A stretch of DNA of 64,000 nt from the sequence record ON286975; one strand, given 5' to 3'. Both the position numbers and the translations under genes were made by a program. The DNA comes from Escherichia phage I29. Positions 8,476-59,519 of this stretch are shown here, in pieces; the stretch's first letter is position 1, and the number at the start of each line of letters is the position of its first letter. The notes under the pieces are model-generated. The model saw only the letters and a program-made list of their open reading frames with translations, ran no database searches and had not been told where the DNA came from.

Positions 8476-8476
8476 C

Positions 8477-20292: not shown

Positions 20293-20351
20293 TTGAAAAT
20301 ACCTCGTAAAAATAAAGCCCCATTCCTGATTTGGAAGGGGCCTTAACAAAA

Positions 20352-21197: not shown

Positions 21198-21223
21198 GGG
21201 ACACTCCTGTTAAACCCTAATAA

Positions 21224-21254
21224 ATAAAAAGGGGAGGGGAGAACCCCCTCCCCA
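21224..21254 (-). terminator. intrinsic terminator immediately after major capsid gene
   Basis: Minus-strand GGGGAGGGGG-TTCT-CCCCTCCCC followed by TTTTTATTT. Confidence 0.7.
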
Positions 21255-21277
21255 TATGGGATGAATCACCTTAGTGA

Positions 21278-22288: not shown

Positions 22289-22336
22289 TTATTTCTCCAA
22301 AATAAAACTTAAATATTTTCCCGAACAATTTAGGGC

Positions 22337-22726: not shown

Positions 22727-22746
22727 TTATTTCCCCCGTTAATGTC

Positions 22747-23724: not shown

Positions 23725-24155
23725 TATTCATTGCCCTCTTCTACAACACTGATCCCGAAGTTTACGTTGGTAATTTCACCAGTTTCTTCATCAACATTAC
23801 CTGTTGCCTGAATGCTTAGGCCACCGACAATGCCAGCCTTCTTAGCTTCCCATAGTTCAGGATTATTGTATTTAACTTTAGCAACCCAAGAGCCAGCCTT
23901 GATGACCTGCTCAGTGCCAATTACTACAACATCAAACTCTTCTTGAATCCACGTCTTTTCAATAGTGAAAGCATCTGTAGAGGTCAAGTGGAAAAGGTTT
24001 TCAGAAACTAGGCCTGCAGCGTATGCTGCGTCCCAGTTATCTTTAGCCTTTTTGATGGTGTCTTTACTCATCCACTCACCGTGAGCATCTTTAGTGTCAG
24101 GCTCGTAGATGATTTCGTAGGAAATCATTTCTTCCTGTGGCATCTTATTCCCCAT
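23724..24155 (-). CDS. hypothetical head morphogenesis protein (start uncertain)
   Basis: ORF track 23724..24299 overlaps the portal 3' end by 89 nt; internal ATGs at 24155/24143/24128 are more plausible starts. Confidence 0.35.
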   Translation of the reverse strand: MGNKMPQEEMISYEIIYEPDTKDAHGEWMSKDTIKKAKDNWDAAYAAGLVSENLFHLTSTDAFTIEKTWIQEEFDVVVIGTEQVIKAGSWVAKVKYNNPELWEAKKAGIVGGLSIQATGNVDEETGEITNVNFGISVVEEGNE

Positions 24156-24210
24156 GTGGATTATTTTATCACGCCAAAGGAGGTTTTGCAACCCCCTGTG
24201 TTGATAATTT

Positions 24211-25767: not shown

Positions 25768-25782
25768 AAGCTTTACCCCTCA

Positions 25783-25817
25783 AAACAGTATAACAAAATA
25801 GCCCTCGTCAGAGGGCT
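25783..25817 (-). terminator. hairpin with T-rich tail after terminase gene (weak terminator or attenuator)
   Basis: AGCCCTC-loop-GAGGGCT 7-bp stem; minus-strand downstream sequence ATTTTGTTATACTGTTTT. Confidence 0.4.
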
Positions 25818-25867
25818 AGTATCTCCAATTACTTTATTGTACCACATCTAATTAAGATTGGCAACAC

Positions 25868-27415
25868 TTAGATAAAACGCTTGAACATAGAAGGTGATGA
25901 GATTGATGGAATCACACAAGGAAGTGCTACCTCCTCTTTCTCTAGGAAATTAATCGCAGAAGCTACACAGTCGGCCCAGTCGTCTTTTCTGTTAAATGTT
26001 GATCTTTCCCCGTTGAATTTTTCAAGTTCAGTCAGAAATGCTTCCAGAGTATCAGGATGGAAACTGGATTTTACAATCCTCACCATTCCTTGTTGGGCAA
26101 GATTGGCAAAAGGTGAGAACCTTGTCAGTTTAGACTTGTTGGAAGGCATTGGGTCTTCTTCAACCCTGAACCCTTCGGCAAGCAAGGATCTGGAGGAGGT
26201 TAAGAACTCACTCTTACCTGCCTGCCCTGGGTCCACAGAGAAGACGATTATGCAATCATCACCATCGAACTGCGCCTGTTTCCTGATGATCACATCTCGT
26301 TCACCAGCCTTTTTACAGAACTTGCCTTCCAGACCTGTGGAATACCTCCCGTCATCCACGTTCTCAGGACAATAATCACCGGACAGGTAATAAAAGCCGT
26401 CGCTATCTTTACTTACCTTAATACTGGCAGTAAAGTCAGGAAATTTATTACCGGAAGTTCTCTCGGTTCCTGCCTTATCCCATGCCCTGCAAGATACTGA
26501 CCCAAGAGGTACTCTATCGGCATCACGAAGGAAAGATCTTTGAAAATAGTTTGCACCCTCAGGCTTTGCAAACCAGTTACCATGGAGAAGCTGAGCTTTT
26601 TCCAGCTCTGGTAGACCTTCGAGGAAAGCAAGGTATTCTGGGTTGTCTCTCAAACAGACAGGATTATCGAATATTGTTGCGCCTATGAACGAGAATGACA
26701 ACGGTCTTGGCTTGATCTCTACGCCAAGTCCGTTAACCGTGGTGTATTTCTCTATCAACTCTTCTTTAGAGTCTCCCCAGATAAATTCACCGTCGCGTCG
26801 GATAAAATATCTTTTCTTACCGCATTTCTCCGGATCTGGATACCCTTCATCGTCCAACCACCATCTAACCAGTTTGGCAAGCATGTGTTCTGAATCGGGG
26901 TTACAGCTGATAACCATTCTTGATGGATACTTTGACTGAGATCGCAGACGAGACATCAGATAGTCTATCTGCTCCCATTCGAACTGCGTGCCCTCATCGA
27001 AGCAAACCATGGTGTACTCAAGCCCCTGATGGTTAAGCTTATCTTGTACATACTCCATATGGCAGTATTTTACAACAGCTCCCTTTTTGCTTCTATCCCA
27101 CTTACCAGTGTTCGGATCAAACCGTGGAAAAATGAACTTATGATCCTTCTCTCTGAACTTTGGCTTAATGTTTTCAGGCAGATCACTGTAAATAGCTACT
27201 GCTTTAGGCCATAGTCCACCCTCACCTTCCAACTGTGGGGTTGTTCTTCGGAACATAACCACAGAGCTGTGGGGGTCATCAATAATTTTAAGTGGCATCA
27301 ACTGCAAGAGGAACGACTTGCCAGACCCTGCGGCACCGCCGATTACCAAAATATCTGCATCGTTTTCTAGGATCATCTTCTGCTTTTCAGAACACGGTCC
27401 GTAAATCTTAGACAT
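25868..27415 (-). CDS. terminase large subunit
   Basis: 515 aa; Walker A GGAAGSGKS near N-terminus, Walker B-like VCFDEG, nuclease-type C-terminal half. Confidence 0.85.
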   Translation of the reverse strand: MSKIYGPCSEKQKMILENDADILVIGGAAGSGKSFLLQLMPLKIIDDPHSSVVMFRRTTPQLEGEGGLWPKAVAIYSDLPENIKPKFREKDHKFIFPRFDPNTGKWDRSKKGAVVKYCHMEYVQDKLNHQGLEYTMVCFDEGTQFEWEQIDYLMSRLRSQSKYPSRMVISCNPDSEHMLAKLVRWWLDDEGYPDPEKCGKKRYFIRRDGEFIWGDSKEELIEKYTTVNGLGVEIKPRPLSFSFIGATIFDNPVCLRDNPEYLAFLEGLPELEKAQLLHGNWFAKPEGANYFQRSFLRDADRVPLGSVSCRAWDKAGTERTSGNKFPDFTASIKVSKDSDGFYYLSGDYCPENVDDGRYSTGLEGKFCKKAGERDVIIRKQAQFDGDDCIIVFSVDPGQAGKSEFLTSSRSLLAEGFRVEEDPMPSNKSKLTRFSPFANLAQQGMVRIVKSSFHPDTLEAFLTELEKFNGERSTFNRKDDWADCVASAINFLEKEEVALPCVIPSISSPSMFKRFI

Positions 27416-27702
27416 TAACCTCTCTCCTTTGGAAACAGTGTTCTAATATAGTCTTGCAAAATGATCAATTTAGCTCTATCATTGCTACAAGACAGATTAT
27501 TATCCCTCATAATGCCAGAATTCACTGCATCTGGCGCACCTTTCTTCAAAGGCATAGCTTTAGCAGGTGGTTTCATGGCACCTTCCGGGGGTTTAACAAT
27601 CAACCTTCCTACATCCGGAGGGTCAATCTTGTATTCTCTCTCAACGCTGGTTGCACACCCACATAATAACAAGCACACAATAAACAGTGTAGCAACTCTC
27701 AT
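27415..27702 (-). CDS. o-spanin-like outer membrane lipoprotein (Rz1-like)
   Basis: 95 aa; signal peptide with Cys-containing lipobox-like LLLCGCATS; Pro-rich mature region; ends ...ERG as lambda Rz1 does; overlaps upstream i-spanin-like gene by 4 nt. Confidence 0.6.
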   Translation of the reverse strand: MRVATLFIVCLLLCGCATSVEREYKIDPPDVGRLIVKPPEGAMKPPAKAMPLKKGAPDAVNSGIMRDNNLSCSNDRAKLIILQDYIRTLFPKERG

Positions 27703-28097
27703 CTACCCTCCTGATTAATACTCTCATTATAAATATCTATAAGCTGATCAGGGAGTGTTGACTTCTTACCCTCAGGTGACTGGAGGTAAATAATCTGCTT
27801 TTCTTTACCTGCCTTCTCAGCCATATTTAATTTATCCTGTAGATCAGAAAGGGATTTTTCAAGGTTTTTAACCTCCTCTGCGTGGCCCATTTTAATTTTG
27901 TCGGCCTGCTTTTGTTGCTGATCAAGGATCCGTTCCCACTTTAACTCTGTTGCTGACACACCTTCTTGGTAGGCATCATTAAGCTTAGAGTTAAACCAAT
28001 ACACGGCCCCAAGATAAGCTGTACCTATCGCAGCTGCAAAAACTAAACCTTTTATGATCCATCTATACCTGCTCAGCCATGTTAAAACTGAAATCAT
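27699..28097 (-). CDS. i-spanin-like protein (Rz-like)
   Basis: 132 aa; N-terminal transmembrane segment (WIIKGLVFAAAIGTAYLGAVYWF) followed by charged coiled-coil-like region. Confidence 0.55.
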   Translation of the reverse strand: MISVLTWLSRYRWIIKGLVFAAAIGTAYLGAVYWFNSKLNDAYQEGVSATELKWERILDQQQKQADKIKMGHAEEVKNLEKSLSDLQDKLNMAEKAGKEKQIIYLQSPEGKKSTLPDQLIDIYNESINQEGR

Positions 28098-28113
28098 TTT
28101 AAGGCTCCAGAAA

Positions 28114-28148
28114 CGAAAAAACCCCGCAGCTATACAGCTAACGGGGCG
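28114..28148 (-). terminator. hairpin plus T-tract (terminator) upstream of spanin genes
   Basis: Minus-strand CCCCG...CGGGG stem enclosing AGCTGTATAGCT, followed by TTTTTTCGTTTCT. Confidence 0.45.
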
Positions 28149-28202
28149 GGTTAAAATTGAGTAACCTAAATAGATCGAAACTAACTAAAAGGAGACTAAT
28201 AC

Positions 28203-28472
28203 TTATCGAGGCACTCGGTGGATGATTCTAACAGTAACTGCATTTTCATTCATCAAGTATGCATCTACATCTCTGTAAATATAAAACTTCTGCTCACTAT
28301 CAACAACACAAGCTACCGCCCCTTCAGAGTTGTCTTCAAAAAAGACCACCACTGCATCGCAGCTGAGTTCATGATATGACTCTCGAAGATTTACAGCCAG
28401 AGGATTGAAATCGTCACGAAAATCTACGGTATGGGTTGGATTTACACGCTCTACAATTTTAAGTGTATACAT
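28203..28472 (-). CDS. hypothetical protein
   Basis: ORF track 28203..28562 would overlap tRNA-Pro; internal ATG at 28472 (MYTLKIVERV...) has an AAGGAAC RBS. Confidence 0.4.
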   Translation of the reverse strand: MYTLKIVERVNPTHTVDFRDDFNPLAVNLRESYHELSCDAVVVFFEDNSEGAVACVVDSEQKFYIYRDVDAYLMNENAVTVRIIHRVPR

Positions 28473-28518
28473 TTTAAAGGTTCCTTTTGTTTGTATATGT
28501 TTAAAGTATAACTGAAAG

Positions 28519-28595
28519 TGGTCTCCACGGAGTGATTCGAACACTCGACCTCCTGATCCCAAATCAGGCGCTCTACCAAGCTGAGCTACGCGGAG
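28519..28595 (-). tRNA. tRNA-Pro (anticodon UGG)
   Basis: Hand-folded: acceptor CTCCGCG/CGTGGAG (C1-G72), anticodon stem CCTGA/TCAGG, loop TTTGGGA, T-arm GAGTG-TTCGAAT-CACTC, encoded CCA. Confidence 0.8.
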
Positions 28596-28606
28596 TATTT
28601 ATTATT

Positions 28607-28681
28607 TGGTGGCCCTGGGTGGAATTGAACCACCGTCTGGCGATTATGAGTCGCTTGCTTGAACCTTCCAGCTACAGGGCC
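28607..28681 (-). tRNA. tRNA-Met or Ile2 (anticodon CAU)
   Basis: Hand-folded: acceptor GGCCCTG/CAGGGCC, anticodon loop CTCATAA, T-arm GGTGG-TTCAATT-CCACC, encoded CCA. Confidence 0.75.
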
Positions 28682-28682
28682 A

Positions 28683-28758
28683 TGGTGCTGATGGCAGGAC
28701 TTGAACCTGCAACCTATTGATTACAAATCAATTGCACTACCAATTGTGCTACATCAGC
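28683..28758 (-). tRNA. tRNA-Thr (anticodon UGU)
   Basis: Hand-folded: acceptor GCTGATG/CATCAGC, D-stem GCAC/GTGC, anticodon stem ATTGA/TCAAT, loop TTTGTAA, T-arm GCAGG-TTCAAGT-CCTGC, CCA. Confidence 0.8.
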
Positions 28759-28763
28759 AAAAA

Positions 28764-28862
28764 GGTGCTAGGTGATGGAATCGAACCACCTATGTATTCA
28801 ACGACTACCTCGTCTATTTTCAGGATTAAAAATCCTCGCCCTTGCCAAAGGGCTTACCTAGC
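28764..28862 (-). ncRNA. atypical tRNA-like element (possible pseudo-tRNA or small stable RNA); anticodon not assignable
   Basis: 7/7 complementary acceptor ends GCTAGGT/ACCTAGC, D-arm GCCC-TTTGGCAA-GGGC and T-arm GGTGG-TTCGATT-CCATC, but the 46-nt middle has no canonical anticodon arm and contains a tight AGGATT-TTT-AATCCT hairpin; 3' end is ACC-T rather than CCA. Confidence 0.35.
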
Positions 28863-28960
28863 TCAGTATGTTGACCATGTTGCTAGTCGGCGATGACGAC
28901 TGTAACATTTGATAATCCGGTTCTGCTTCCGGCTTTCGCTTAATTACAAGGTCAACAATA

Positions 28961-29051
28961 TGGCTGAGGGTAATGGAATCGAACCATCATCAAGTCATCC
29001 TCAACGGGACGGTTTTCAAGACCGCTTGAGCACCATTGCTCCCTACCCTCA
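28961..29051 (-). tRNA. tRNA-Ser (anticodon UGA), type II with long variable arm
   Basis: Hand-folded: acceptor TGAGGGT/ACCCTCA, anticodon stem GCGGT/ACCGT, loop CTTGAAA, long variable arm, T-arm GATGG-TTCGATT-CCATT, discriminator G, CCA. Confidence 0.7.
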
Positions 29052-29165
29052 TTTATAAACAATACTGATAATGACACTGATTTTCGAGCAGTTAGTGACT
29101 AGTATAAACGACGATAAATATCAATGCCATTATCTGTATGATTTATGCATTTAAAACTATAAATT

Positions 29166-29252
29166 TGGTGGGGAGTGGTGGAGTCGAACCACCCGAGTCG
29201 CAATGACAATAGATTTACAGTCTACACCGCTACCCCTACGGGATAACTCCCC
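29166..29252 (-). tRNA. tRNA-Tyr (anticodon GUA), type II
   Basis: Acceptor GGGGAGT/ACTCCCC, anticodon loop CTGTAAA and variable arm TGTCATTGCGACTCG closely resemble bacterial tRNA-Tyr; T-arm GGTGG-TTCGACT-CCACC, CCA. Confidence 0.8.
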
Positions 29253-29256
29253 AATT

Positions 29257-29331
29257 TGGCACCCCGTACTGGACTCGAACCAGTGTCAACGGCTTAGAAG
29301 GCCGCTGCTTTATCCACTAAGCTAACAGGGC
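29257..29331 (-). tRNA. tRNA-Arg (anticodon UCU)
   Basis: D-arm TTAGCTTAGTGGATAAAGC, anticodon stem-loop GCGGC-CTTCTAA-GCCGT, T-arm ACTGG-TTCGAGT-CCAGT, CCA; resembles bacterial tRNA-Arg(UCU). Confidence 0.75.
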
Positions 29332-29389
29332 ACTGGGTGGCTTTCTTTTACACCTTAGCCGCCAGAAAAGGTGGGAGACCATGTTTACA

Positions 29390-29419
29390 ATATTACACTG
29401 TTAAGCAAAGTTTGTCAAG
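29390..29419 (-). promoter_or_regulatory. sigma70-like promoter (TTGACA-18-TAATAT) upstream of tRNA cluster
   Basis: Minus-strand reading cTTGACAaactttgcttaacagtgTAATATtg, about 60 nt upstream of the first tRNA. Confidence 0.5.
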
Positions 29420-29427
29420 AAAATATT

Positions 29428-29766
29428 TTAGCTATTGCTAACAGGTTGTATTTCTGTGGTAAATGGCATAAAAGGTGCTGGTTTTTCAGCCTCTTCTACT
29501 ACCACCTCTTCCTCTTCACCAAACATCTCATCATATTCTTCCTGCATTCGGTCTGCCTTATCAAGAACATACTCTGCAATGCTTTGACGAATATTTTGTT
29601 TGGTTTTCGGGTCCAACATCAGCTCTCTTAAAACTTTGTGAGCTTCTGGAACCATCGCTATAAAAGATTCCTTCATATCAAGGATGTTCTTCTCTAGCTG
29701 AATGGCGTTGGACTCCTCTTTCAGAGGTCTGCCTCTACGGCGACGCTTTTTAGTTGTATCCGCCAT
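29428..29766 (-). CDS. small DNA-binding-like protein with AT-hook-type motif and acidic C-terminus
   Basis: ORF track 29428..29886; ATG at 29766 has a GGAGGAAAC RBS and sits downstream of the promoter at 29795..29823. N-terminus MADTTKKRRRRGRPLKEE contains an RGRP core; C-terminus is Glu-rich. Confidence 0.45.
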   Translation of the reverse strand: MADTTKKRRRRGRPLKEESNAIQLEKNILDMKESFIAMVPEAHKVLRELMLDPKTKQNIRQSIAEYVLDKADRMQEEYDEMFGEEEEVVVEEAEKPAPFMPFTTEIQPVSNS

Positions 29767-29794
29767 GTTTCCTCCATTATCACGTGATAGGTGG

Positions 29795-29823
29795 ATTTTA
29801 TCATAGCAAATACTGATTGTCAA
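29795..29823 (-). promoter_or_regulatory. sigma70-like promoter (TTGACA-17-TAAAAT)
   Basis: Minus-strand reading cTTGACAatcagtatttgctatgaTAAAATcc; same TTGACAAT...TAAAAT pattern as the promoter at 16115..16143. Confidence 0.55.
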
Positions 29824-30110
29824 GTTCGCCGCAGGGTGGTATTCCCTGCGACTTGTCCAGCGTCCTGGACCAGAAAGACCCAACAAGTGGGTTACCAGAG
29901 CCCATTACCGCACTTTGGCTCGACCTTATTACAGGTTGGCTGGGGTCACATCGTCATGTGCTGGCTGCCCCTACCATTTTAAGTGTGGTGCACTATCAAG
30001 CCCTCTAAGGGGAACTCAGCCTTCTCCGAACCCTGTTTCAAAGCATCCGGAGATAAAGCCATCAAATTCATCTTTAAATTGGATATTCATCATGATACAC
30101 GAAAACAACC

Positions 30111-30353
30111 TCATTGTAAAGCACAAATAAATAAAACATACTTAATTTGTTTGTTATCAGGCTCAGGGTAGAAGTAGAAGATCTTGCTATCACCGATCTG
30201 AACACCACCATCCCAACAGCATAGCCCATAACCCGTATTCATACAAGCTAAGTCGTTGGCAAAATCTATTGCATCATCCAGTGCACGAAATTCACCTTCA
30301 TCTTCTAAATAATCCTCATTCATGGAACGAAAAACGAGCTTAACCTTAAACAT
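30111..30353 (-). CDS. hypothetical protein
   Basis: 80-aa acidic ORF. Confidence 0.35.
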   Translation of the reverse strand: MFKVKLVFRSMNEDYLEDEGEFRALDDAIDFANDLACMNTGYGLCCWDGGVQIGDSKIFYFYPEPDNKQIKYVLFICALQ

Positions 30354-30429
30354 AGCATTACCTGTAGACCTCGTAAGTTAAAATTGCATCACATCATATT
30401 GCAGATCTTATCAGGTAACACTATTTTTG

Positions 30430-30639
30430 TCAACAGATTCCGGCCTTATCCTTCCTGTCTGCGTATTCTTTAATCGCAACCTCATCTGCATTAGTGACCA
30501 GGTCTTCAAAGTAACTCTCAAGCTCCTCGTCAATGTCAGGAGACCAGCTCTTTTTCCTGTCAGTGTGAATTGCAGACTTGTTGAACTTATTACAGTTCTT
30601 TGCTACCGGGTTGTTCATTAAGCGCTCCTCAGCGTTCAT
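30430..30639 (-). CDS. hypothetical protein
   Basis: 69-aa ORF overlapping the stop of the upstream gene. Confidence 0.3.
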   Translation of the reverse strand: MNAEERLMNNPVAKNCNKFNKSAIHTDRKKSWSPDIDEELESYFEDLVTNADEVAIKEYADRKDKAGIC

Positions 30640-31207
30640 AGTAAATCTTATTTAACATTACCTCATCCTTTGCAGAAAGGATATCAAGATATGCATCACC
30701 AAATCTTCCTGCAACAACCTCTGCATGATACATCACTTCGTTAACATCGTCAAGAGTGATAACCGGATGACCATATCTTTCTGAATATTGTCTCAGGGTG
30801 CGATGTAACGAGTCGTCATCATATGCAGACTTTTTAATATCACAAACACGACGAATAGCCTTGATGTCGAAAAAACCTGTGCGATACCACCCAAGAAAAA
30901 GGTTTCGTGCAGTGTCAACATCTACATTGATACCATCAAGAACCTTATCTACAAGATAGCTGTCATCCTTTGGACCAGCGTCCTTAGTGCGAATGTAGTT
31001 GCCATCTTTTCCAGGCGACATCTCCTTCTCATCCCCAACCTGCATGCCATCATTTGGCGGTGTTAGCCACTTATCCGGATGCTTACGATCACGAGCGTTA
31101 GAATGATTACGCTGGAAACCGGGCTTCCACTTGAAAGTTTTCTCCATCTGTTCTTCATTCTGATAACGTTTTGCAATCTTTTCACGGTCATCTTTGCGTG
31201 AACCCAT
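30629..31207 (-). CDS. hypothetical protein
   Basis: 192-aa ORF; first gene leftward of the iteron-containing intergenic region. Confidence 0.45.
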   Translation of the reverse strand: MGSRKDDREKIAKRYQNEEQMEKTFKWKPGFQRNHSNARDRKHPDKWLTPPNDGMQVGDEKEMSPGKDGNYIRTKDAGPKDDSYLVDKVLDGINVDVDTARNLFLGWYRTGFFDIKAIRRVCDIKKSAYDDDSLHRTLRQYSERYGHPVITLDDVNEVMYHAEVVAGRFGDAYLDILSAKDEVMLNKIYYER

Positions 31208-31711
31208 AGCTGCCTCCTCTTCAAGTTATAGAAAAACTAACTGTATCGCTTTGTAACGAGCTTTTCTATCAAACTGGTGCGATTGCATTACCTGGTATAG
31301 TTTATATAGCTGTGGAGCGATTTAGGGGCCTTCTTGTCAGTTTCCACACATAAACTTCATCCAAGCTCGCGCGGGAGACTCTCAACCGACTCCTTACGGC
31401 GCTGGCAAGCTTTCGTCGGTGGTCCACATCAGTGCTCGGCCTTTGGCCTGCGCTATCGCTTCGCTCCCACACATGTTAACAGACCTGTATGTATGAACTT
31501 CTGTTATTGTGTGCACCAAAGAGGCCCGGCATCTCGCCCCTCGTAGGCGAGTGCCAATGAAGGGCCGACACTGCCCATAGTAAGTAATAAATTTAAAACA
31601 TGGTACTTAGGATCTAGTATATTCTACATAAGTTAAGTATATGTACTTAGTACCATAAGTACTAGATCTTTTATTTTTTTATTATTTAGTTATTTTAGTT
31701 ATATTCTTTAT

Positions 31712-31820
31712 GTGTCCGTATCACGGACAGCTAGTGTCCGTATTACGGGCAGATGTGTCCGCGTGACGGACAGTAGTGTCCGTATCACGGACAGTTAATA
31801 GTATCCGTTCCATGGCGAAC
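31712..31820. repeat. array of four tandem ~21-bp direct repeats (iteron/operator-like), each with internal inverted repeat, plus one degenerate copy
   Basis: GTGTCCGTATCACGGACAG at 31712-31730 and 31776-31794 (identical), GTGTCCGTATTACGGGCAG at 31734-31752, GTGTCCGCGTGACGGACAG at 31755-31773, degenerate copy about 31800-31820; spacing 22/21/21 bp; each unit contains GTCCG...CGGAC. Confidence 0.8.
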
Positions 31821-31868
31821 ATAAAACATACGAATCCTTATAGTACAGATATTTAAGTTTTTACTGGT

Positions 31869-32219
31869 CTAACCAGTTGTTGACATCCGAATAACTTCTT
31901 CTGGTGGCAAAACTTTGGAAAATGTGCATCTTTTACCTCTCCCTTGTGTGGATGTTTCAACCACTCCTGCACATTCTAAAGTTTTAACGCACGCTGCTGC
32001 TTTTGTTTTCTTTATCCCAACATCTGCTGCAATTTTCCTTGTGCTTGGTGTGAAGCGTGAATTTCCTCCAAGCTTATACCAGTTGTGCAGGTAGCAGTAT
32101 ACGATCTTGTCATACAAGTCAAGAACAACAACCTCCCCAGTTGTGTCATTCAAAACTTTTGACATAGATAGTATTTCAAGGGGGACTTTAAGATATAGCA
32201 GCTTATCCCCATCTTTCAT
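31869..32219 (-). CDS. hypothetical protein, possible helix-turn-helix DNA-binding protein
   Basis: 116-aa ORF; segment STRKIAADVGIKKTKAAACVKTL has helix-turn-helix character (inference); 3' end abuts the iteron array. Confidence 0.35.
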   Translation of the reverse strand: MKDGDKLLYLKVPLEILSMSKVLNDTTGEVVVLDLYDKIVYCYLHNWYKLGGNSRFTPSTRKIAADVGIKKTKAAACVKTLECAGVVETSTQGRGKRCTFSKVLPPEEVIRMSTTG

Positions 32220-32266
32220 ATCTCCTGATTCTCCTTGTGTGGCAATTTTCTTTAAAATAGCAGGGA

Positions 32267-32821
32267 TTACTCCCTGCTGTCAATATCAAAACTCATTGCA
32301 ATACGGTATGCCTCTTCTAATGGTAAGAGTCTCCCCCACACATCCCAACCGACATCAAGCTGCCTGCCAAACAACTGTTGTGTGGTTCCGTGAGCATGAC
32401 CGAACAGTTGGACTGATCCGTGAGGCTTTCTGTTCCACTTTGCAAACTGGTAATGGCTCATACAGATCAAATTCTTGTTGTGGCGAAGCTCGTAATAATC
32501 TACAACCTCATGACCGAACTCTTTCATAATTCTGACAGTCGTCCTTGTGTCATGGTTGCCACGAACAAGAATAATATGTCCGTTCAACATATTTAGAATA
32601 TCTGGAAGTAAGTTGTTGATATTCTTATCATTAGTGCACGCAATATCTCCCAAGTGGAACACAGTGTCTGCAGGTGACACAACAGAGTTCCACTTGGCGA
32701 TGATTCCCGCATTCATACTGTCAAGATTGTGATCATACTGAGATCTGTGTTTTTGACATGAATCAAACTCCATGACCCGCTGGTGGAGAAAGTGTGTGTC
32801 GCTTGTTACAAAGTATTTCAT
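32267..32821 (-). CDS. calcineurin-like metallophosphoesterase (candidate RNA 2',3'-end phosphatase)
   Basis: ORF track 32267..32926; ATG at 32821 (MKYFVTSDTHF...) has a GAGGAA RBS. Motifs SDTHF, GDI, GNHD, GHAHG match binuclear metallophosphoesterases. Confidence 0.7.
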   Translation of the reverse strand: MKYFVTSDTHFLHQRVMEFDSCQKHRSQYDHNLDSMNAGIIAKWNSVVSPADTVFHLGDIACTNDKNINNLLPDILNMLNGHIILVRGNHDTRTTVRIMKEFGHEVVDYYELRHNKNLICMSHYQFAKWNRKPHGSVQLFGHAHGTTQQLFGRQLDVGWDVWGRLLPLEEAYRIAMSFDIDSRE

Positions 32822-32828
32822 ACATTCC

Positions 32829-33239
32829 TCATTTAAGTTTAATGCAGTTTTTAAGCTGGCGTTCCATACGATCCACAACCTTGTCTGGAACATCATGAAT
32901 GCTTTTATTACCGTGGCGGTTTTCAACCACGATCACGGTATAACTATACCCATGACTGATTGCCATGTCAACATATTCCTGCACATGTTTTTCTTTTGTA
33001 AACGTATTACTTACCACGATACGGTCGTATCCCATACGCATCATATCTTCTACGTTATCTTTGCACCATTTTGCTGCGAGTGTTACTTTACTTGCATCCC
33101 AGTTGTAATTGCCGTCATCGTCATACCAGAACATGTCGTTCTCAAAATGTGGATACAGACCCTCTAAAGATAGCGCATTTGCCAGTGTTGATTTGCCAGA
33201 CCCTGGTAGACCACGCACGATATATAGCATTTTAGACAT
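32829..33239 (-). CDS. P-loop kinase, polynucleotide kinase-like
   Basis: ORF track 32829..33296; ATG at 33239 (MSKMLYIVRGLPGSGKST...) has a GGAGGG RBS; Walker A GLPGSGKST at the N-terminus as in polynucleotide 5'-kinase domains; adjacent to phosphoesterase and RNA ligase-like genes. Confidence 0.55.
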   Translation of the reverse strand: MSKMLYIVRGLPGSGKSTLANALSLEGLYPHFENDMFWYDDDGNYNWDASKVTLAAKWCKDNVEDMMRMGYDRIVVSNTFTKEKHVQEYVDMAISHGYSYTVIVVENRHGNKSIHDVPDKVVDRMERQLKNCIKLK

Positions 33240-33339
33240 AGTGACCCTCCGTTTTAATTTCAACGGTAGTATACCTGACTGTTTTGTTAATTTCAAGTGT
33301 TGACACTAGGTTATTTGTGTGGCAGGATAGACTGACAAA

Positions 33340-34275
33340 ATGACAAATGAGGAACGTATGATGAAGTATTTTAATGCAGACGACCTAGTTGACAAAGGTC
33401 TTGTAACCAGTAGGTATTACCCAGATCTCGGGTTAAAGATCTATAAATATGCTAGAAAAGTATTTTACAACAATTTATGGCATTTGTCCCCTCGTTTACT
33501 GGAGTGCCGAGGCATTGTTGTAGGTAATGAAGGAAATGTTGTGGCATGGCCCTTCACAAAAGTGTTTAACTTGGGAGAAAACTCCACCAACCTGCCTGAC
33601 AATAAGCTTGTGACTGCGGTAGAGAAAAAGAACGGATTCCTTGGTGTGGTATCATCTCATAAAGGTGACCTATTGTTCTCAACAACCGGGTCTCTTGATT
33701 CTCCATATTGTAACCTTGCAAAGGAAACCATCCAAGAGCAATGTGGTAATTTAGATCTTATCAAGAAGGTTATGGGCAATGAAAACATGACATTCATGTT
33801 TGAAATTTGTCACCCTTCAGATCCGCATATTGTTCAAGAAGACCATGGCGCATATTTGATAGGTTGCAGATATAATGATTCTGGAATAATGCTACCAGAA
33901 GCAGCTTTAGATGGGATTGCCAAATACCTTGGTGCAAAACGTCCTCACACTGTGCGTGAAATCCCGTTCAGCTATGCAAAAGAATTAGCTGCAGAAACAA
34001 GGGGCGAAGGGTATATGATCCGTAAGCCTTACTACCCTTATGACCTGCAGCTGAAGATCAAGTCTCCATACTATTTGGCACGGAAGGCCGTAATGAGGGG
34101 TAAAGCTTGGAAGATTTGGGATGATGATATCTTTAAACGTATTGACGAAGAGTTTTATGGCATGGTAAACTTCATTCGTAGCAATTACACAGAAGATGTG
34201 TGGAACTGCCTCCTGGAGCAGGAACGCCGTGAGATACTTGATTGCTATTTTCACAACGAGGACTATATGCAATGA
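33340..34275 (+). CDS. RNA ligase-like nucleotidyltransferase
   Basis: 311 aa; covalent nucleotidyltransferase motif I-like VEKKNGFLG (KxNG); distinct from the DNA ligase at 36746; divergent from the kinase/phosphatase pair. Confidence 0.5.
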   Translation: MTNEERMMKYFNADDLVDKGLVTSRYYPDLGLKIYKYARKVFYNNLWHLSPRLLECRGIVVGNEGNVVAWPFTKVFNLGENSTNLPDNKLVTAVEKKNGFLGVVSSHKGDLLFSTTGSLDSPYCNLAKETIQEQCGNLDLIKKVMGNENMTFMFEICHPSDPHIVQEDHGAYLIGCRYNDSGIMLPEAALDGIAKYLGAKRPHTVREIPFSYAKELAAETRGEGYMIRKPYYPYDLQLKIKSPYYLARKAVMRGKAWKIWDDDIFKRIDEEFYGMVNFIRSNYTEDVWNCLLEQERREILDCYFHNEDYMQ

Positions 34276-54487: not shown

Positions 54488-55420
54488 ATGAGAAGACTAA
54501 CAACCGAAGAGTTTATAGAAAAAGCTCAGACTATACATGGTGACAAATATGATTACTTCAAAGTGGAGTATAAAAACAACAAGACACCTGTGTGTATAAT
54601 TTGTCCTGAGCACGGTGAGTTCTGGCAAACCCCTGTGGCACATGCTTTCAAGAATCATGGTTGTCCAAGGTGTGGTGGGTCAGCGAAAAAGAACACTGAA
54701 GAGTTCATAAAAGAGGCTATGGCTGTTCATGGGGACAAGTACGATTACTCATTAGTCAAATATGCGAACATGAGAACGCCTGTAAAAATTGTTTGCCCTG
54801 AACACGGTGTGTTTGAACAATACCCTGAAAACCACTTATACCAAAGAAACGGCTGCCCAGAGTGCTATGACTTAAGACGTGGGCAAAGTCAAGCGTTAAC
54901 CCATAAGGAGCATGCTGCAATTATCCACAAAGCCAACCCAGACATAGAAATATTAGAGAAAATTGCCAATGATAACACAAAAGTGCAATGTAGGTGCAAA
55001 ATTTGTGGGTATAAGTGGTCTGCTAAACCTAATAACCTAAAAAGTGGTCGTGGCTGCTGTAAATGCGCACAAAATGGATTCTTATCTCATGAGTACGGTA
55101 AACTCTACATTATGGTTGATGACTTAGAAGTGCCAACACTTATGAAAATCGGTGTATGCGTTAAAATGCACAGGAGGAAAAATGAGGTGCTTAACAGTGC
55201 TCGTAAATCTGGCGCAGGTGTCCACACTCTTCACGTAGTAAAAACATGGAGCGGATCAACTCAAAACATGGTAGATTTAGAAAAATCTGTGCATAAGGCC
55301 TTGAGCAAGTATAAAATAAACTTTCCTGTAAAATTTGACGGTAGCACTGAGTTTTTCTACTACAGGCCTGAAGTGTTTGACACGGTAGAAGAGGTATACA
55401 AGAAGATTTGTGGTAAATGA
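54488..55420 (+). CDS. homing-endonuclease-like protein (repeated Zn-finger modules plus T5orf172/GIY-YIG-like C-terminal domain)
   Basis: 310 aa; three repeats of HGDKYDY..V.Y.N..TPV.I.CPEHG.F.Q.P..H....GCP.C; C-terminal GKLYIMVDD...KIGVCVK...VHTLHVV...GSTEFF. Inserted between nrdD and nrdG with own terminator/promoter. Confidence 0.45.
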   Translation: MRRLTTEEFIEKAQTIHGDKYDYFKVEYKNNKTPVCIICPEHGEFWQTPVAHAFKNHGCPRCGGSAKKNTEEFIKEAMAVHGDKYDYSLVKYANMRTPVKIVCPEHGVFEQYPENHLYQRNGCPECYDLRRGQSQALTHKEHAAIIHKANPDIEILEKIANDNTKVQCRCKICGYKWSAKPNNLKSGRGCCKCAQNGFLSHEYGKLYIMVDDLEVPTLMKIGVCVKMHRRKNEVLNSARKSGAGVHTLHVVKTWSGSTQNMVDLEKSVHKALSKYKINFPVKFDGSTEFFYYRPEVFDTVEEVYKKICGK

Positions 55421-56622: not shown

Positions 56623-57411
56623 ATGGGTCGAGCTAAAGAAACAAAACGCATGCGTGATGAAGCTAGAGAGGCTCGCAAATCTGATCGCTTGCGTAAGGCT
56701 GCTGAGAAATTTGCTGACGAAAGAGAGCACACCGCTCCAGCTCTCCGACCAATGAATAAGAAGCAGCAAAAGTATCTTGATTATCTAGGGTCACGTAAGA
56801 TTATTATTGTAAACGGTGTGTTTGGATCCGGTAAGACATTTATGGCATCTGCATATGCAGGTGATCTTCTGCGTAAGAACGAGATTGATAAGATCATTGT
56901 TGCACGTCCTTACGTCCAGACAGGAAAGACTTCAGGATTTAAACCCGGAAATGCAATTCAGAAACTGTGGCCCTATCTTCGAAGCATGATGGACACGATT
57001 TGTCGTCGTGTTGGCAAAGGTGCTTTTGCCGCAATGCTGGGAGACGGTCAGAACAGTCGTATCGAGATTTGTGAGGTTGAAAGCATTCGTGGTCGTAGTT
57101 TCGATGAGCGATGCTTTGTCCTGATTGACGAGGCACAGCAAACTAACCCTGAAGAAATGTTGTCAATTATCACAAGGATCTCTGATCAAGCCACCCTTGT
57201 AATTATGGGTGATAATAGCCAACGTGACATCCCTGGTAAATCTGGCCTTGCGTGGGTGACGGATTTCTTTACTCGTCATCCAGATCCTGAGGTTGGAATG
57301 ATCAGCTTTGATAGTCCAGACGATGTCGTTCGTTCCGGGTTGGGCCGTCAGATCGCACTCAATCTTATTGAGGATCGTGCAAATCATATTTGGACCCCTG
57401 TTTCCGAGTAA
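56623..57411 (+). CDS. phoH: PhoH-like ATPase
   Basis: 262 aa; Walker A VNGVFGSGKTF and conserved PhoH core (LIDEAQQ, IMGDNSQRD). Confidence 0.8.
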   Translation: MGRAKETKRMRDEAREARKSDRLRKAAEKFADEREHTAPALRPMNKKQQKYLDYLGSRKIIIVNGVFGSGKTFMASAYAGDLLRKNEIDKIIVARPYVQTGKTSGFKPGNAIQKLWPYLRSMMDTICRRVGKGAFAAMLGDGQNSRIEICEVESIRGRSFDERCFVLIDEAQQTNPEEMLSIITRISDQATLVIMGDNSQRDIPGKSGLAWVTDFFTRHPDPEVGMISFDSPDDVVRSGLGRQIALNLIEDRANHIWTPVSE

Positions 57412-57416
57412 TACAG

Positions 57417-57437
57417 AAGGGTGGTTATTCCACCCTT
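57417..57437 (+). terminator. hairpin after phoH (weak terminator)
   Basis: AAGGGTGG-TTATT-CCACCCTT 8-bp stem; downstream sequence is A-rich, so efficiency is doubtful. Confidence 0.35.
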
Positions 57438-57455
57438 AAATATCTAAAACAGTTG

Positions 57456-57484
57456 TTGACAAATAGGTAAGCTTTAGATATTAT
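57456..57484 (+). promoter_or_regulatory. sigma70-like promoter (TTGACA-17-TATTAT)
   Basis: gTTGACAaataggtaagctttagaTATTATcgg; shares the GTTGTTGACAAA -35 context with the promoter at 56063. Confidence 0.55.
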
Positions 57485-57512
57485 TATCGGACAAAACAGA
57501 GAGAAGGACAGT

Positions 57513-57824
57513 ATGGCTACAATACAAGAGAAACTGAATAAAATATACTGCCTGTTTGTCTATAACGGCGAGACAATTTTGGCAAATAAAGGATCCAAGA
57601 ATGTGTGGACCAAGGACAGCGGTGGTAATATAATTAACTTAGCGTTGCTACGTGAGCGCCGACACAGATTCTTTATCGAGTCTCGAATTATTGAAAGCAG
57701 CACTTGCTACAGAACAGGCGATAAAGTAATTGTTGACAATGATACGTGGTATGTGGTAGATTGGCAATCATTGAGTTGTGATGCTTCTGACAATCGTAAG
57801 TACTCCATAGTGATTGCTAAATAA
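57513..57824 (+). CDS. hypothetical protein
   Basis: 103-aa ORF. Confidence 0.4.
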   Translation: MATIQEKLNKIYCLFVYNGETILANKGSKNVWTKDSGGNIINLALLRERRHRFFIESRIIESSTCYRTGDKVIVDNDTWYVVDWQSLSCDASDNRKYSIVIAK

Positions 57825-57884
57825 AGGTAAATGTGAATCAGGTTTAAATAAATAGCTTTCAACTTCCAATATTAAGGATTTCTC

Positions 57885-58934
57885 ATGAATTTAACACCTC
57901 GCAGCACCATGGTACACGGCATGAAAGAAAAACAGAACGGTTTCGAACCTATGAGTAATAAAATGTTTGGTATGCCGGGCGGTATCATGGAAACATACAG
58001 CTACCCAACACCTGTTGTTGACCACGTTCTTTATATCGACGATTTGGAGGACCTGCAGGATCATATGTCTCGTCTGCAGACGATCCGTATGGCTCAGCCG
58101 GAAGAAAGCATTCGTGTGATCATCAATAGCCCTGGTGGTTGCGTGCACATTGCAATGGCTTATCTGCAGGCATTCCGCGAGTCTCAGGCAAGCGTTGTTG
58201 CACATGCTGAAGGGATGTGCTGCTCTGCTGGAACAATCTTATGGCTTGGTTGCAAAGAACGTACTGTGGCTCCGGACACAGAATTTATGTTCCACTACTA
58301 TCAAGGTGGCACTTATGGTAACGGTGTTAACATGAATACTCAGGTCAGCTACTGGAAAAAACGTTTTGAACACCTGATCGAAAAATACTACGGTGGGGTG
58401 CTGACAGAAGATGAGATCGCATCCATCACAGCTGGTGGCGAAGTGTGGTTGGACGGAGAAGAGTTGGCAGCACGCACTGGAGCTATTATTCTGGATGAAG
58501 GCAACATACAACGCATCCAGAACGGACAAAAACCGAAAAAGCTTCTGGCAAAAGGTGATGAAGAAGGCGTGTTAGGTGAAGCAGGTCTTCCGGAGATTCA
58601 TCAGTGCACATCTTTAGATGAGTTAGTTCATGCTGTTGAATCTGCAAAAGCGGGTGGTTCGAAAGGTGATGTTCACACTGTGTTCCTGAATCTGCAGATG
58701 GAAAGTGGCGAGACCGTCCGAATTGCCCTGGGTGAGATTACTTCAGAAGATCTGCAGAGATTCTCTGTCGTTGAACTTCAGGATATTCTGTCTCAATTGA
58801 AGACTACTCTGAACGGCGGTGAAGAGGTTAAGGTGAAAGATAAGACTCGCAAGCGTCTTGTGGACAATATTATTAAAACAGCAAAAGAGCTCAATGAAAA
58901 AATCCTGGGTGCAGGAATTGTCGAAGAAGCTTAA
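57885..58934 (+). CDS. ClpP-family (S14-like) serine protease homolog
   Basis: 349 aa; ClpP-like blocks VIINSPGG, AEGMCCSAGTIL (Ser) and FMFHYYQGG (His); long C-terminal extension; true start may be a downstream Met. Confidence 0.7.
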   Translation: MNLTPRSTMVHGMKEKQNGFEPMSNKMFGMPGGIMETYSYPTPVVDHVLYIDDLEDLQDHMSRLQTIRMAQPEESIRVIINSPGGCVHIAMAYLQAFRESQASVVAHAEGMCCSAGTILWLGCKERTVAPDTEFMFHYYQGGTYGNGVNMNTQVSYWKKRFEHLIEKYYGGVLTEDEIASITAGGEVWLDGEELAARTGAIILDEGNIQRIQNGQKPKKLLAKGDEEGVLGEAGLPEIHQCTSLDELVHAVESAKAGGSKGDVHTVFLNLQMESGETVRIALGEITSEDLQRFSVVELQDILSQLKTTLNGGEEVKVKDKTRKRLVDNIIKTAKELNEKILGAGIVEEA

Positions 58935-58947
58935 ACATTAATTCTAA

Positions 58948-58968
58948 AGCCCTCTTCGGAGGGCTTTT
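58948..58968 (+). terminator. intrinsic terminator after ClpP-like gene
   Basis: AGCCCTC-TTCG-GAGGGCT followed by TTTT. Confidence 0.6.
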
Positions 58969-58985
58969 ATGATCTGGAGATTTGC

Positions 58986-59519
58986 ATGACTTGTGCTAGA
59001 AAACCTGATGAACAACGTAACGCCTACGATGAGTATGTGACACCGGAGTGGTGTGCAGAAGGGCTGTATGACCTTATTCCGTTCCCAGAAGACTGGACCT
59101 ACTTAGAGCCTTGCAGGAATAGTGCCTCAGGTGTGTTCTACTCCCGTATGCCGTTAGGATCTGCATGGGGAGAAATCCAAGAAGGTGTTGACTATCTGAA
59201 TACAGAATACAACCATGTTGACTGTATTATCACCAACCCGCCGTACAGCCTGGCTCGTGAGTTTGTGGACAAGGCGTTGAAAGATGCCGACGTAGTTATT
59301 ATGCTTTTGCGTCTTAATTTTCTGGAAAGCAAGGCCAGATTTGAATGGTGGCTTGATAATGCACCTACCACTGTGATCACAATATCTAAGCGTCCGTCAT
59401 TCCAATCTAATGGTAGAACGGATGGGCAGGCATATGCATATTTTGTGTGGGATAAGAAAAACCGTTTAGACTTGCCGCCATTTATGTGGTTGGCACCCCC
59501 AGAGGTAGACCTGAAATGA
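58986..59519 (+). CDS. small DNA amino-methyltransferase (NPPY type)
   Basis: 177 aa; LEPCRNSASG (motif I-like) and ITNPPYS (motif IV). Confidence 0.55.
   Translation: MTCARKPDEQRNAYDEYVTPEWCAEGLYDLIPFPEDWTYLEPCRNSASGVFYSRMPLGSAWGEIQEGVDYLNTEYNHVDCIITNPPYSLAREFVDKALKDADVVIMLLRLNFLESKARFEWWLDNAPTTVITISKRPSFQSNGRTDGQAYAYFVWDKKNRLDLPPFMWLAPPEVDLK

What the first reader, a model, noticed from the sequence alone, without database searches (positions are those of the whole stretch)
57885..58934. ClpP-like serine protease encoded in the early region, far from the head genes
Clear ClpP-type blocks (INSPGG, the Ser block, the His block) with a ~150-aa C-terminal extension. ClpP-fold prohead proteases normally sit between portal and scaffold genes. 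This one is about 34 kb away on the opposite strand behind an early-type promoter, while the protease slot in the head module holds an unassigned ORF (23724..24155). It may be a relocated maturation protease or a protease targeting host or defence proteins.
Basis: partly seen in the sequence, partly recalled or inferred. Interest (0 to 1): 0.5.

Follow-up and report, generated by a model that had tools for sequence, protein, structure and literature searches.

The report
Orphan ClpP-like protease of rV5-like phage
This is the already-annotated ClpP-like protease (rV5 gp122) of a Vequintavirus; it is a real, apparently active protease of untested function, and it is not a displaced capsid protease, because the head gene cluster carries its own.

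Summary
ORF 57885..58934 (+, 349 aa) is a ClpP-fold serine peptidase with INSPGG, Ser114 and His137, plus a C-terminal extension of about 137 aa. It lies 34 kb from the head genes, on the other strand.

The window is a Vequintavirus, 98-99% identical to published phages. This gene is rV5 gp122, annotated "ClpP protease subunit" since 2013.

The "unassigned" head-slot ORF 23724..24155 is a Peptidase_S78_2 (XkdF-type) prohead protease. It is 40% identical to ICP1 gp125, annotated "capsid protease". It is followed by a homologue of ICP1's experimentally shown scaffold. The head module is therefore complete.

gp122 belongs to a widespread lineage of orphan phage ClpP-like proteases (PHROG 5410/1827), which includes T5.042, ICP1 gp211 and nt-1 ORF271. 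These sit among replication and nucleotide-metabolism genes, often just downstream of phoH. At least in ICP1, T5-like phages and this window they coexist with a separate head protease.

In the window the gene is the second of a two-gene cassette with a sigma70-like promoter and a terminator. The residues that dock ClpX/ClpA in E. coli ClpP are not conserved. Substrates are unknown.

Verdict: ordinary, already known, modest interest.

The parts
56623..57411 (+). PhoH-like P-loop ATPase gene (rV5 gp120), upstream neighbour
   Evidence: Pfam PhoH E=7e-47; PHROG 170 E=7.5e-75. A phoH gene lies 0-4 genes upstream of the ClpP-like gene in many phage lineages.
57417..57437 (+). Stem-loop after phoH; a possible terminator or processing site, but it lacks a clear U-tract
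   Evidence: RNAfold -13.7 kcal/mol, z=-3.6.
57456..57484 (+). Sigma70-consensus-like promoter (TTGACA-17-TATTAT), equivalent to rV5 P121
   Evidence: 11 of 12 consensus positions match. The same site was predicted in rV5 Table S4 at 90197..90242.
57513..57824 (+). 103-aa ORF (rV5 gp121), first gene of the cassette, function unknown
   Evidence: ORF; PHROG 5456 'unknown' E=2e-39; no Pfam hit; no homologue among the intervening ORFs of the ICP1, CR3, PWH3a-P1, helene 12B3, B31, phiPsa397 and Barba16S loci.
57885..58934 (+). ClpP-like serine protease gene (rV5 gp122, Bas49_0178), 349 aa
   Evidence: (PHROG 5410 E=2e-154, full length).
58017..58529 (+). ClpP-fold protease domain (res 45-215). INSPGG is at 58122-58139, the Ser114 codon at 58224-58226, His137 at 58293-58295 and Glu186 at 58440-58442
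   Evidence: AF2 pLDDT above 90; Foldseek to ClpP; residue conservation.
58677..58913 (+). C-terminal domain (res 265-343): a beta-hairpin plus two long helices, with invariant F293, E297 and R322. It is family-specific
58946..58970 (+). Intrinsic terminator (GC-rich hairpin followed by UUUUAU), equivalent to rV5 t122
   Evidence: RNAfold -14.7 kcal/mol, z=-4.2; rV5 Table S4 t122.
58986..59519 (+). N6-adenine DNA methyltransferase-like gene, downstream neighbour
   Evidence: PHROG 799 E=8e-67; 62% identical to CR3 gp204, which also follows the protease gene there.
23724..24155 (-). Head-module protease candidate (Peptidase_S78_2 / XkdF type) in the canonical slot after the portal gene
   Evidence: Pfam E=5e-18, above cut-off; PHROG 1530 E=2.9e-52 and PHROG 3017 'head maturation protease' E=6e-14; 40% identical to ICP1 gp125 'capsid protease', E=3e-19.
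22747..23724 (-). Scaffold homologue (325 aa)
   Evidence: BLASTP to ICP1 gp124 gives E=1e-10. gp124 was shown experimentally to be the scaffold (PMC10002752).
21278..22288 (-). Major capsid protein (lambda gpE-type)
   Evidence: Pfam Phage_cap_E E=1.5e-39; ICP1 gp122 E=2e-62.
24211..25767 (-). Portal protein
   Evidence: PHROG 113 E=2e-88; ICP1 gp127 E=4e-50.

Best explanation
ORF 57885..58934 is the Vequintavirus orthologue of rV5 gp122. It is a catalytically competent ClpP-fold serine endopeptidase. The catalytic residues are Ser114 and His137, with Glu186 in the Asp171 position and INSPGG as the oxyanion-hole element. It is not part of head morphogenesis.

It belongs to an old, widespread lineage of 'orphan' phage ClpP-like proteases that includes ICP1 gp211, T5.042, nt-1 ORF271 and the Pakpunavirus and Otagovirus homologues. 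These genes reside in the replication and nucleotide-metabolism region. In the cases checked they coexist with a separate prohead protease.

In this phage the gene is transcribed by host RNA polymerase from a sigma70-type promoter. It is the second gene of a two-gene cassette (gp121-gp122) that ends at an intrinsic terminator.

Inferred steps:
- The protein is made before or alongside DNA replication and acts in the infected-cell cytoplasm on host or phage proteins.
- It probably works without host ClpX/ClpA, because the hydrophobic docking-pocket residues are replaced by charged or polar ones.
- The family-specific C-terminal domain, and possibly the N-terminal tail, supplies targeting or gating.

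Shown here: fold, catalytic residues, gene context, the separate head protease, and family distribution.
Not shown: activity, oligomeric state, timing in this phage, and substrates.
For: Identity and fold.

Already-annotated orthologue: (rV5 gp122).

The head module is complete and collinear with ICP1's portal-protease-scaffold-decoration-coat genes. ICP1's scaffold is verified experimentally and gp125 is annotated as capsid protease. PHROG 1530 and 2970 proteins, but no PHROG 5410/1827 protein, appear in the W70 virion mass spectrometry. rV5 gp122 carries no 'MS evidence' tag.

Orphan homologues lie in non-structural regions in ten further loci: ICP1 (32), CR3 (33), Pakpunavirus B31 (34), T5-like Slocum, whose gene is annotated as the T5.042 homologue (54), nt-1 (55), Barba16S (56), PWH3a-P1 (67), phiPsa397 (68), helene 12B3 (69) and 4MG (105). 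BF23, a T5-like phage, has both a prohead protease and this 'Clp protease, function currently unknown'.

True head-type ClpP proteases sit between portal and capsid genes and score only E about 1e-8 against the family profile. In the same search the Vequintavirinae-type members score E<=1e-77 and the shorter Barba-like and PhoH-linked relatives E<=2e-42.

ICP1 gp211 is classed 'Middle-late', as is its PhoH neighbour.

Promoter and terminator.

Docking pocket: E. coli ClpP Y60, Y62, F82, I90, M92 and L114 correspond to R77, I79, E99, H107, E109 and A129. The list of pocket residues is from my own knowledge of the ClpP literature.
Against: There are no functional data for any member of this lineage in the literature searched.

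Timing is inferred from a 35%-identical homologue in another genus and from a promoter consensus match. rV5-type promoters of this kind also occur in the late region.

The best-scoring annotated profiles are ClpP-related head-maturation proteases: NF045542 at 60.6 bits, and PHROG 1684 at E=8e-22 reaching residue 256.

The T5-type homologue was detected at low abundance in purified BF23 virions.

Position 186 is Gln, not an acid, in most 4MG-like family members, so the triad is not strictly conserved.

The catalytic competence of the S78_2 head-slot protein is itself only predicted.
Confidence: 0.6

Rival explanations
1. gp122 is a second, relocated capsid or virion protease. It would be packaged into or act inside proheads, for example to process scaffold or internal proteins, with its C-terminal extension acting as a capsid-targeting or scaffold-like tail as in protease-scaffold fusions.
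For: The nearest annotated profiles are ClpP-related head-maturation proteases. The architecture, a protease followed by a helical C-terminal extension, resembles lambda-like protease-scaffold proteins such as P0227, which sits between portal and gpD/gpE genes. The T5.042-type homologue was detected in purified BF23 virions with 3 peptides. No experiment has identified the acting maturation protease in rV5 or ICP1.
Against: The head slot holds an S78_2 protease whose PHROG family is found in W70 virions. gp122 is not listed in the rV5 or W70 virion proteomes. Its scores are below the family cut-off. It lies 34 kb away on the opposite strand behind a sigma70-type promoter. The ICP1 homologue is not co-expressed with the capsid cluster. 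BF23 virions also contained DHFR, so carry-over of non-structural proteins is possible.
Confidence: 0.15
2. gp122 is a true ClpP substitute, as the 'ATP-dependent protease subunit' annotation implies. It would form ClpP-like rings that dock host ClpX or ClpA and redirect host unfoldases to phage-chosen substrates.
For: It has the ClpP fold and catalytic Ser and His. The N-terminal segment is comparable in length to ClpP's axial region.
Against: The IGF/IGL-loop pocket residues are replaced by Arg, Glu and His. The score is 33 bits against the 308.6-bit cut-off of the ClpP equivalog TIGR00493. In E. coli ClpP, Arg170 precedes the catalytic Asp171. Here the aligned residue is Gly185, so the Arg is absent.
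Confidence: 0.1
3. gp122 works together with the neighbouring phage PhoH-like ATPase as a dedicated two-component module, either ATP-dependent proteolysis or coupled RNA/protein turnover.
For: phoH lies 0-4 genes upstream on the same strand in Vequintavirus, Certrevirus, 4MG, ICP1, PWH3a-P1, Barbavirus, Otagovirus (the two genes overlap by 8 nt), helene 12B3 and a metagenomic contig (3 nt apart). This holds although the PhoH and ClpP-like proteins are only 21-44% and 25-35% identical across lineages.
Against: In this window the two genes are separated by a hairpin and a promoter. Pakpunavirus kept the protease and the upstream genes but has no phoH at that locus. T5-like and nt-1 phages have the two genes apart or not adjacent. 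phoH occurs in 3199 phage records, many of them cyanophages. PhoH is a helicase-like P-loop NTPase, not a known unfoldase. The synteny may simply be inherited gene order.
Confidence: 0.08

Closest known systems
rV5 gp122 / Bas49_0178 and the other Vequintavirus 'ClpP-like protease' annotations
   Same: Orthologue. The 3-kb region is 98-99% identical to many GenBank Vequintavirus genomes (121 records match, 115 over at least 80% of its length), with the same length of 349 aa and the same neighbours.
   Different: Nothing of substance. The function is untested in all of them.
Orphan phage ClpP-like proteases: ICP1 gp211, T5.042 / BF23 ORF45, nt-1 ORF271, Pakpunavirus and Otagovirus 'ATP-dependent Clp protease'. 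The window protein also matches PHROG 1827 at E=3e-40
   Same: The protease domain is 25-35% identical with Ser and His conserved. These genes lie in replication or nucleotide-metabolism regions, often downstream of phoH. They coexist with a separate prohead protease where checked (ICP1, T5-like). Function is unknown.
   Different: The Vequintavirinae version has its own C-terminal domain. Homology to CR3's is detectable (E=2e-5), but homology to the ICP1-type extensions is not significant. Many relatives are short, about 180-245 aa, with no such domain.
ClpP-related phage head-maturation proteases (NCBIfam NF045542; PHROGs 1684, 94, 2976)
   Same: Same fold and Ser/His catalytic residues. These are the best-scoring named profiles after its own PHROGs.
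   Different: The score is below the family cut-off, the gene is not between portal and capsid genes, and the head module has another protease.
Bacterial ClpP (MEROPS S14, Pfam PF00574)
   Same: Fold, INSPGG, the Ser-His-acid arrangement and the long 'handle' helix.
   Different: About 20% identity, far below the equivalog cut-offs. The AAA+ docking-pocket residues are not conserved. It has extra N- and C-terminal regions, and no clpX-type neighbour.
Lambda gpC / SppA (S49) prohead proteases
   Same: ClpP-class fold. Lambda-type gpD/gpE capsid genes are present in this phage.
   Different: S49 enzymes use a Ser-Lys dyad, whereas this protein has the ClpP-type His. SppA profiles score only E=0.022. 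Here the gpE-type capsid is paired with an S78_2 protease instead.

Membership tests
ClpP / Pfam CLP_protease (MEROPS S14, broad sense) | Profile match above the Pfam gathering score | tested here: met
   47 bits against 20.2, E=3.5e-12.
ClpP / Pfam CLP_protease (MEROPS S14, broad sense) | ClpP alpha/beta fold | tested here: met
   AF2 core pLDDT above 90. The top 50 Foldseek PDB hits are all ClpP, at E about 1e-10 and target TM 0.64-0.73.
ClpP / Pfam CLP_protease (MEROPS S14, broad sense) | Catalytic Ser-His-Asp triad | tested here: inconclusive
   Ser114 and His137 are invariant. The Asp171-equivalent is Glu186 here, Asp or Glu in most distant homologues, but Gln in most 4MG-like members and in Barba.
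Canonical ClpP (NCBIfam TIGR00493 equivalog; AAA+-dependent) | Equivalog score cut-off | tested here: not met
   33.2 bits against 308.6.
Canonical ClpP (NCBIfam TIGR00493 equivalog; AAA+-dependent) | Hydrophobic pocket that docks the ClpX/ClpA IGF/IGL loops | tested here: not met
   E. coli Y60, Y62, F82, I90, M92 and L114 align to R77, I79, E99, H107, E109 and A129. This rests on alignment only, and the residue list is from my own knowledge.
Canonical ClpP (NCBIfam TIGR00493 equivalog; AAA+-dependent) | Stacked heptameric rings (tetradecamer) | not testable with these tools
   Only single-chain prediction was available.
ClpP-related head maturation protease (NCBIfam NF045542) | Family score cut-off | tested here: not met
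   60.6 bits against 120.
ClpP-related head maturation protease (NCBIfam NF045542) | Gene located in the head module between the portal and scaffold or capsid genes | tested here: not met
   It lies 33.7 kb away on the opposite strand. Genuine examples are adjacent to portal and capsid genes.
ClpP-related head maturation protease (NCBIfam NF045542) | Late expression and cleavage of scaffold or capsid proteins | not testable with these tools
   Only indirect evidence is available: ICP1 gp211 is 'Middle-late', and the local promoter is sigma70-type.
Orphan phage ClpP-like protease (PHROG 5410; broader PHROG 1827) | Full-length profile match | tested here: met
   PHROG 5410 E=2.2e-154 over residues 24-345; PHROG 1827 E=3.2e-40.
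Orphan phage ClpP-like protease (PHROG 5410; broader PHROG 1827) | Location in the replication and nucleotide-metabolism region, with a separate head protease in the same genome | tested here: met
   The neighbours are NrdAB, NrdDG, PhoH and a methyltransferase. An S78_2 protease sits in the head module.
S49 (SppA / lambda gpC) | Profile match and Ser-Lys dyad | tested here: not met
   SppA_dom scores E=0.022, 14 bits against 155. A ClpP-type His is present.
HeH / SAP / Rho_N motif (C-terminal domain only) | Profile or fold match to a helix-extension-helix nucleic-acid-binding motif | tested here: inconclusive
Peptidase_S78_2 (XkdF-type prohead protease), for head-slot ORF 23724..24155 | Profile match above cut-off, and position after the portal gene | tested here: met
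   65.7 bits against 24. It lies directly downstream of the portal gene. The DAHG, NLFH and GLSI motifs are shared with ICP1 gp125.

The most novel reading that the evidence does not exclude
The recurrent phoH-then-ClpP-like gene pair reflects a functional partnership. The pair is overlapping or 3 nt apart in two lineages and 1-4 small genes apart in seven others. On this reading the phage PhoH-like ATPase feeds or regulates the orphan ClpP-like protease, or both act on the same nucleic-acid-bound host targets, possibly through the HeH-like C-terminal domain. That would give a first mechanistic role to phage phoH, a widely used but functionally unexplained marker gene.
Probability: 0.08. Interest if true: 0.75.

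Novelty: already known. Interest (0 to 1): 0.3.

Why it matters
The case for a 'missing' or relocated head protease in rV5-like phages disappears once the S78_2 protease is recognised in the head module. The finding therefore does not revise phage assembly.

What remains is a known gap. A conserved, apparently active ClpP-fold protease is carried by many large virulent phages, including the model phages T5 and ICP1, alongside their replication genes. No function has been assigned to it.

If it degrades host or defence proteins during takeover, it would be a broadly distributed takeover or counter-defence tool. Its frequent linkage to phoH is a testable lead.

Tried and rejected
- T4-type late promoter TATAAATA: not enriched in the window (5 found against 2.5 expected). 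The rV5 late motif TGGTAAAATA is enriched, but none lies directly upstream of gp122.
- The search for related loci with the diverse alignment failed because there was no conserved stretch. With a single protein it returned only close Otagovirus relatives.
- Literature searches for functional work on phage ClpP-like proteases found nothing. A Vequintavirus transcriptome search found nothing relevant.
- PADLOC: no defence-system match for gp122 or gp121.
- PDB sequence search for the S78_2 ORF: no solved relative.
- S49/SppA assignment was rejected.
- The idea that the 103-aa upstream ORF is a conserved partner was rejected. It has no homologue among the intervening ORFs of the other lineages compared.

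Full report
**What the window is.** The 3-kb stretch around the finding is 98-99% identical to many Vequintavirus genomes. It matches 121 GenBank records, 115 of them over at least 80% of its length; examples are EmilHeitz/Bas49, rV5 derivatives, Murica and PDX. The head region matches the same phages. GC skew flips at about 34 kb. Genes at 1-34 kb (structural) run on the minus strand, and genes at 34-64 kb (replication and nucleotide metabolism) run on the plus strand.

**The observation.** ORF 57885..58934 (+) encodes 349 aa and has an AAGGA ribosome-binding site 6 nt upstream.
- It matches Pfam CLP_protease above the gathering score (E=3.5e-12).
- It matches PHROG 5410 'ATP-dependent protease' over its full length (E=2e-154).
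- INSPGG (80-85), Ser114 and His137 are invariant in a 20-member family alignment. Ser114 and His137 are also conserved in ten distant phage homologues aligned with E. coli ClpP.
- Glu186 aligns with the ClpP catalytic Asp171. That position is Asp or Glu in most distant homologues but Gln in most 4MG-like members.
- AF2 gives a confident ClpP core (res 45-215, pLDDT above 90), a low-confidence linker (223-262) and a folded C-terminal domain (265-343).
- Foldseek returns only ClpP structures at the top.

The extension is about 137 aa.

**It is already annotated.** The gene is rV5 gp122, 'ClpP (ATP-dependent) protease subunit', 349 aa, in the 2013 rV5 paper (PMC3606486). In the BASEL phages it is 'ClpP-like protease'. 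The same paper predicted promoter P121 and terminator t122. These correspond to window 57456-57484 (TTGACA-17-TATTAT, 11 of 12 matches) and 58946-58970 (hairpin of -14.7 kcal/mol, z=-4.2). The gene is therefore the second of a two-gene cassette, gp121 (103 aa, PHROG 5456, unknown) followed by gp122. A hairpin after phoH and a terminator after gp122 flank the cassette.

**The head module is not missing a protease.**
- It also matches PHROG 1530 and PHROG 3017 'head maturation protease'.
- The whole module is collinear and homologous with that of Vibrio phage ICP1. The portal matches gp127 (E=4e-50), the protease matches gp125 'capsid protease' (40% identity, E=3e-19), and the 325-aa ORF matches gp124 (E=1e-10). 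Decoration and coat follow, with coat matching gp122 (E=2e-62).
- ICP1 gp124 was shown experimentally to be the scaffold (PMC10002752). gp122-126 form ICP1's late capsid cluster (PMC7567579).
- In the Vequintavirinae phage W70, virion mass spectrometry detected the PHROG 1530 'capsid maturation protease' and the PHROG 2970 protein. It detected no PHROG 5410 or 1827 protein (PMC11370258).
- rV5 gp122 carries no 'MS evidence' tag in the rV5 gene table.

**The family and its contexts.**
- Full-length relatives with the C-terminal domain are confined to Vequintavirinae-like phages: 4MG, Hena1, and Klebsiella and Enterobacter phages of 145-150 kb. They form only about seven 50%-identity clusters.
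- The protease domain has thousands of relatives.
- In annotated phages these relatives sit among replication and nucleotide-metabolism genes. Examples are ICP1 gp211, CR3 gp205 (33), Pakpunavirus B31 (34), T5-like Slocum, whose gene is annotated as the T5.042 homologue (54), nt-1 ORF271 between frd and uvsX (55), Barba16S (56), PWH3a-P1 (67), Otagovirus phiPsa397 (68), helene 12B3 (69), 4MG (105) and a metagenomic relative (104).
- ICP1 and T5-like phages are shown to have distinct head proteases. T4-like phages such as nt-1 use gp21 by established knowledge, which I did not check here.
- BF23, a T5-like phage, explicitly has both. Its 'Clp protease (ORF45)' is described as of unknown function (PMC10644984).
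- Genuine ClpP-type head proteases lie between portal and capsid genes and score only E about 1e-8 against the family profile. Bacterial clpP in a tig-clpP-clpX-lon locus scores similarly. In the same search, relatives of the orphan type score E<=2e-42.
- ICP1 RNA-seq classes gp211 and its PhoH neighbour as 'Middle-late', whereas capsid genes are late.

**How it probably works.**
- The catalytic apparatus is intact, so an active serine peptidase is expected.
- Membership of canonical ClpP fails on two counts: the equivalog cut-off (33 bits against 308.6) and the residues that form the ClpX/ClpA docking pocket in E. coli ClpP. Y60, Y62, F82, I90, M92 and L114 correspond here to R77, I79, E99, H107, E109 and A129. 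The 'ATP-dependent' label is therefore not supported.
- The domain is homologous to that of CR3 (hhalign E=2e-5). Homology to the ICP1-type extensions is not demonstrable.
- My best reading is a non-morphogenetic, partner-independent ClpP-fold protease. It would be made from a host-type promoter and act in the infected cell on unknown host or phage substrates, with the C-terminal domain used for targeting.

**Rivals.**
1. *A second capsid or virion protease.* The nearest named profiles are head-maturation proteases, and BF23 virions contained the T5-type homologue at low level. The evidence in the head-module and family sections above argues against it.
2. *A ClpX/ClpA-dependent ClpP substitute.* The docking pocket and the scores argue against it.
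3. *A PhoH-coupled module.* See the next section.

**The phoH linkage, noticed in passing.**
- phoH lies 0-4 genes upstream on the same strand in the window, CR3, 4MG, a metagenomic Vequintavirinae-like contig, ICP1, PWH3a-P1, Barba16S, phiPsa397 (8-nt overlap), helene 12B3 and a JGI contig (3-nt gap).
- The proteins are only 21-44% identical across these lineages.
- The linkage is not universal. Pakpunavirus retains the two genes upstream of phoH and the protease gene but lacks phoH at that locus. T5-like and nt-1 phages do not have the genes adjacent. phoH is far more widespread, in 3199 records.
- In the window, a hairpin and a promoter separate the two genes.
- Inherited gene order is the simplest explanation. 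A functional link is a low-probability but interesting possibility.

**Verdict.** The feature is real but already known and annotated. The idea that made it look unusual, an empty protease slot, is wrong. Its function remains untested, which gives it modest residual interest.

Noticed in passing
window 56623..58934; loci L004, L005, L009, L011, L012, L013, L022, L028, L029: A phoH-like ATPase gene lies 0-4 genes upstream, on the same strand, of the orphan ClpP-like protease gene in at least nine phage lineages. In Otagovirus the two genes overlap by 8 nt, and in a JGI contig they are 3 nt apart. The proteins are only 21-44% identical. The pair is not adjacent in Pakpunavirus, T5-like or nt-1 phages.
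   Followed up: partly
window 23724..24299 (-): The head-slot S78_2 protease ORF has an ambiguous start. ATG 24155 gives 143 aa. GTG 24299 gives 191 aa and overlaps the end of the portal gene. GenBank records differ (134-190 aa). Murica labels it 'DNA methyltransferase', and PHROG 1530 carries the same apparently wrong label.
   Followed up: partly
window 1..34000, minus strand: The rV5 late-promoter-like motif TGGTAAAATA (up to 1 mismatch) occurs 19 times against 6.4 expected. Twelve of these are on the minus strand of the structural region, for example upstream of the portal gene (25835-25844) and at 19636-19645 and 16114-16123.
   Followed up: partly
window 22747..23724 (-): The homologue of ICP1's scaffold (PHROG 2970) is reported as an abundant component of mature virions in W70 (913 spectra) and as 'MS evidence' in rV5. 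This is unusual for a scaffold and suggests that it, or fragments of it, stay in the head.
   Followed up: no
window 54488..55420 (+): A 310-aa ORF with repeated zinc-finger-like modules (DUF723, CapR) and a C-terminal T5orf172 domain looks like a homing-endonuclease-type mobile gene. It sits just upstream of nrdG. EmilHeitz has no such ORF at that position.
   Followed up: partly
window 20352..21197 (-): A 281-aa ORF downstream of the capsid gene is annotated 'inhibitor of prohead protease' in rV5_ev168. Only its last 45 or so residues match PHROG 1051 (E=2e-7) and the C-terminus of ICP1 gp120 (E=0.013). The label looks weakly founded.
   Followed up: no
T5-like phage BF23 (PMC10644984): The T5.042-type orphan Clp protease (ORF45) was detected at low abundance in purified BF23 virions together with the true prohead protease. 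The authors call its function unknown.
   Followed up: no
L013 3983..4843 (Vibrio phage helene 12B3): A gene annotated 'head maturation protease' sits next to phoH and nrdB, far from any head gene shown. It is probably an orphan ClpP-like protease that has been mislabelled.
   Followed up: no
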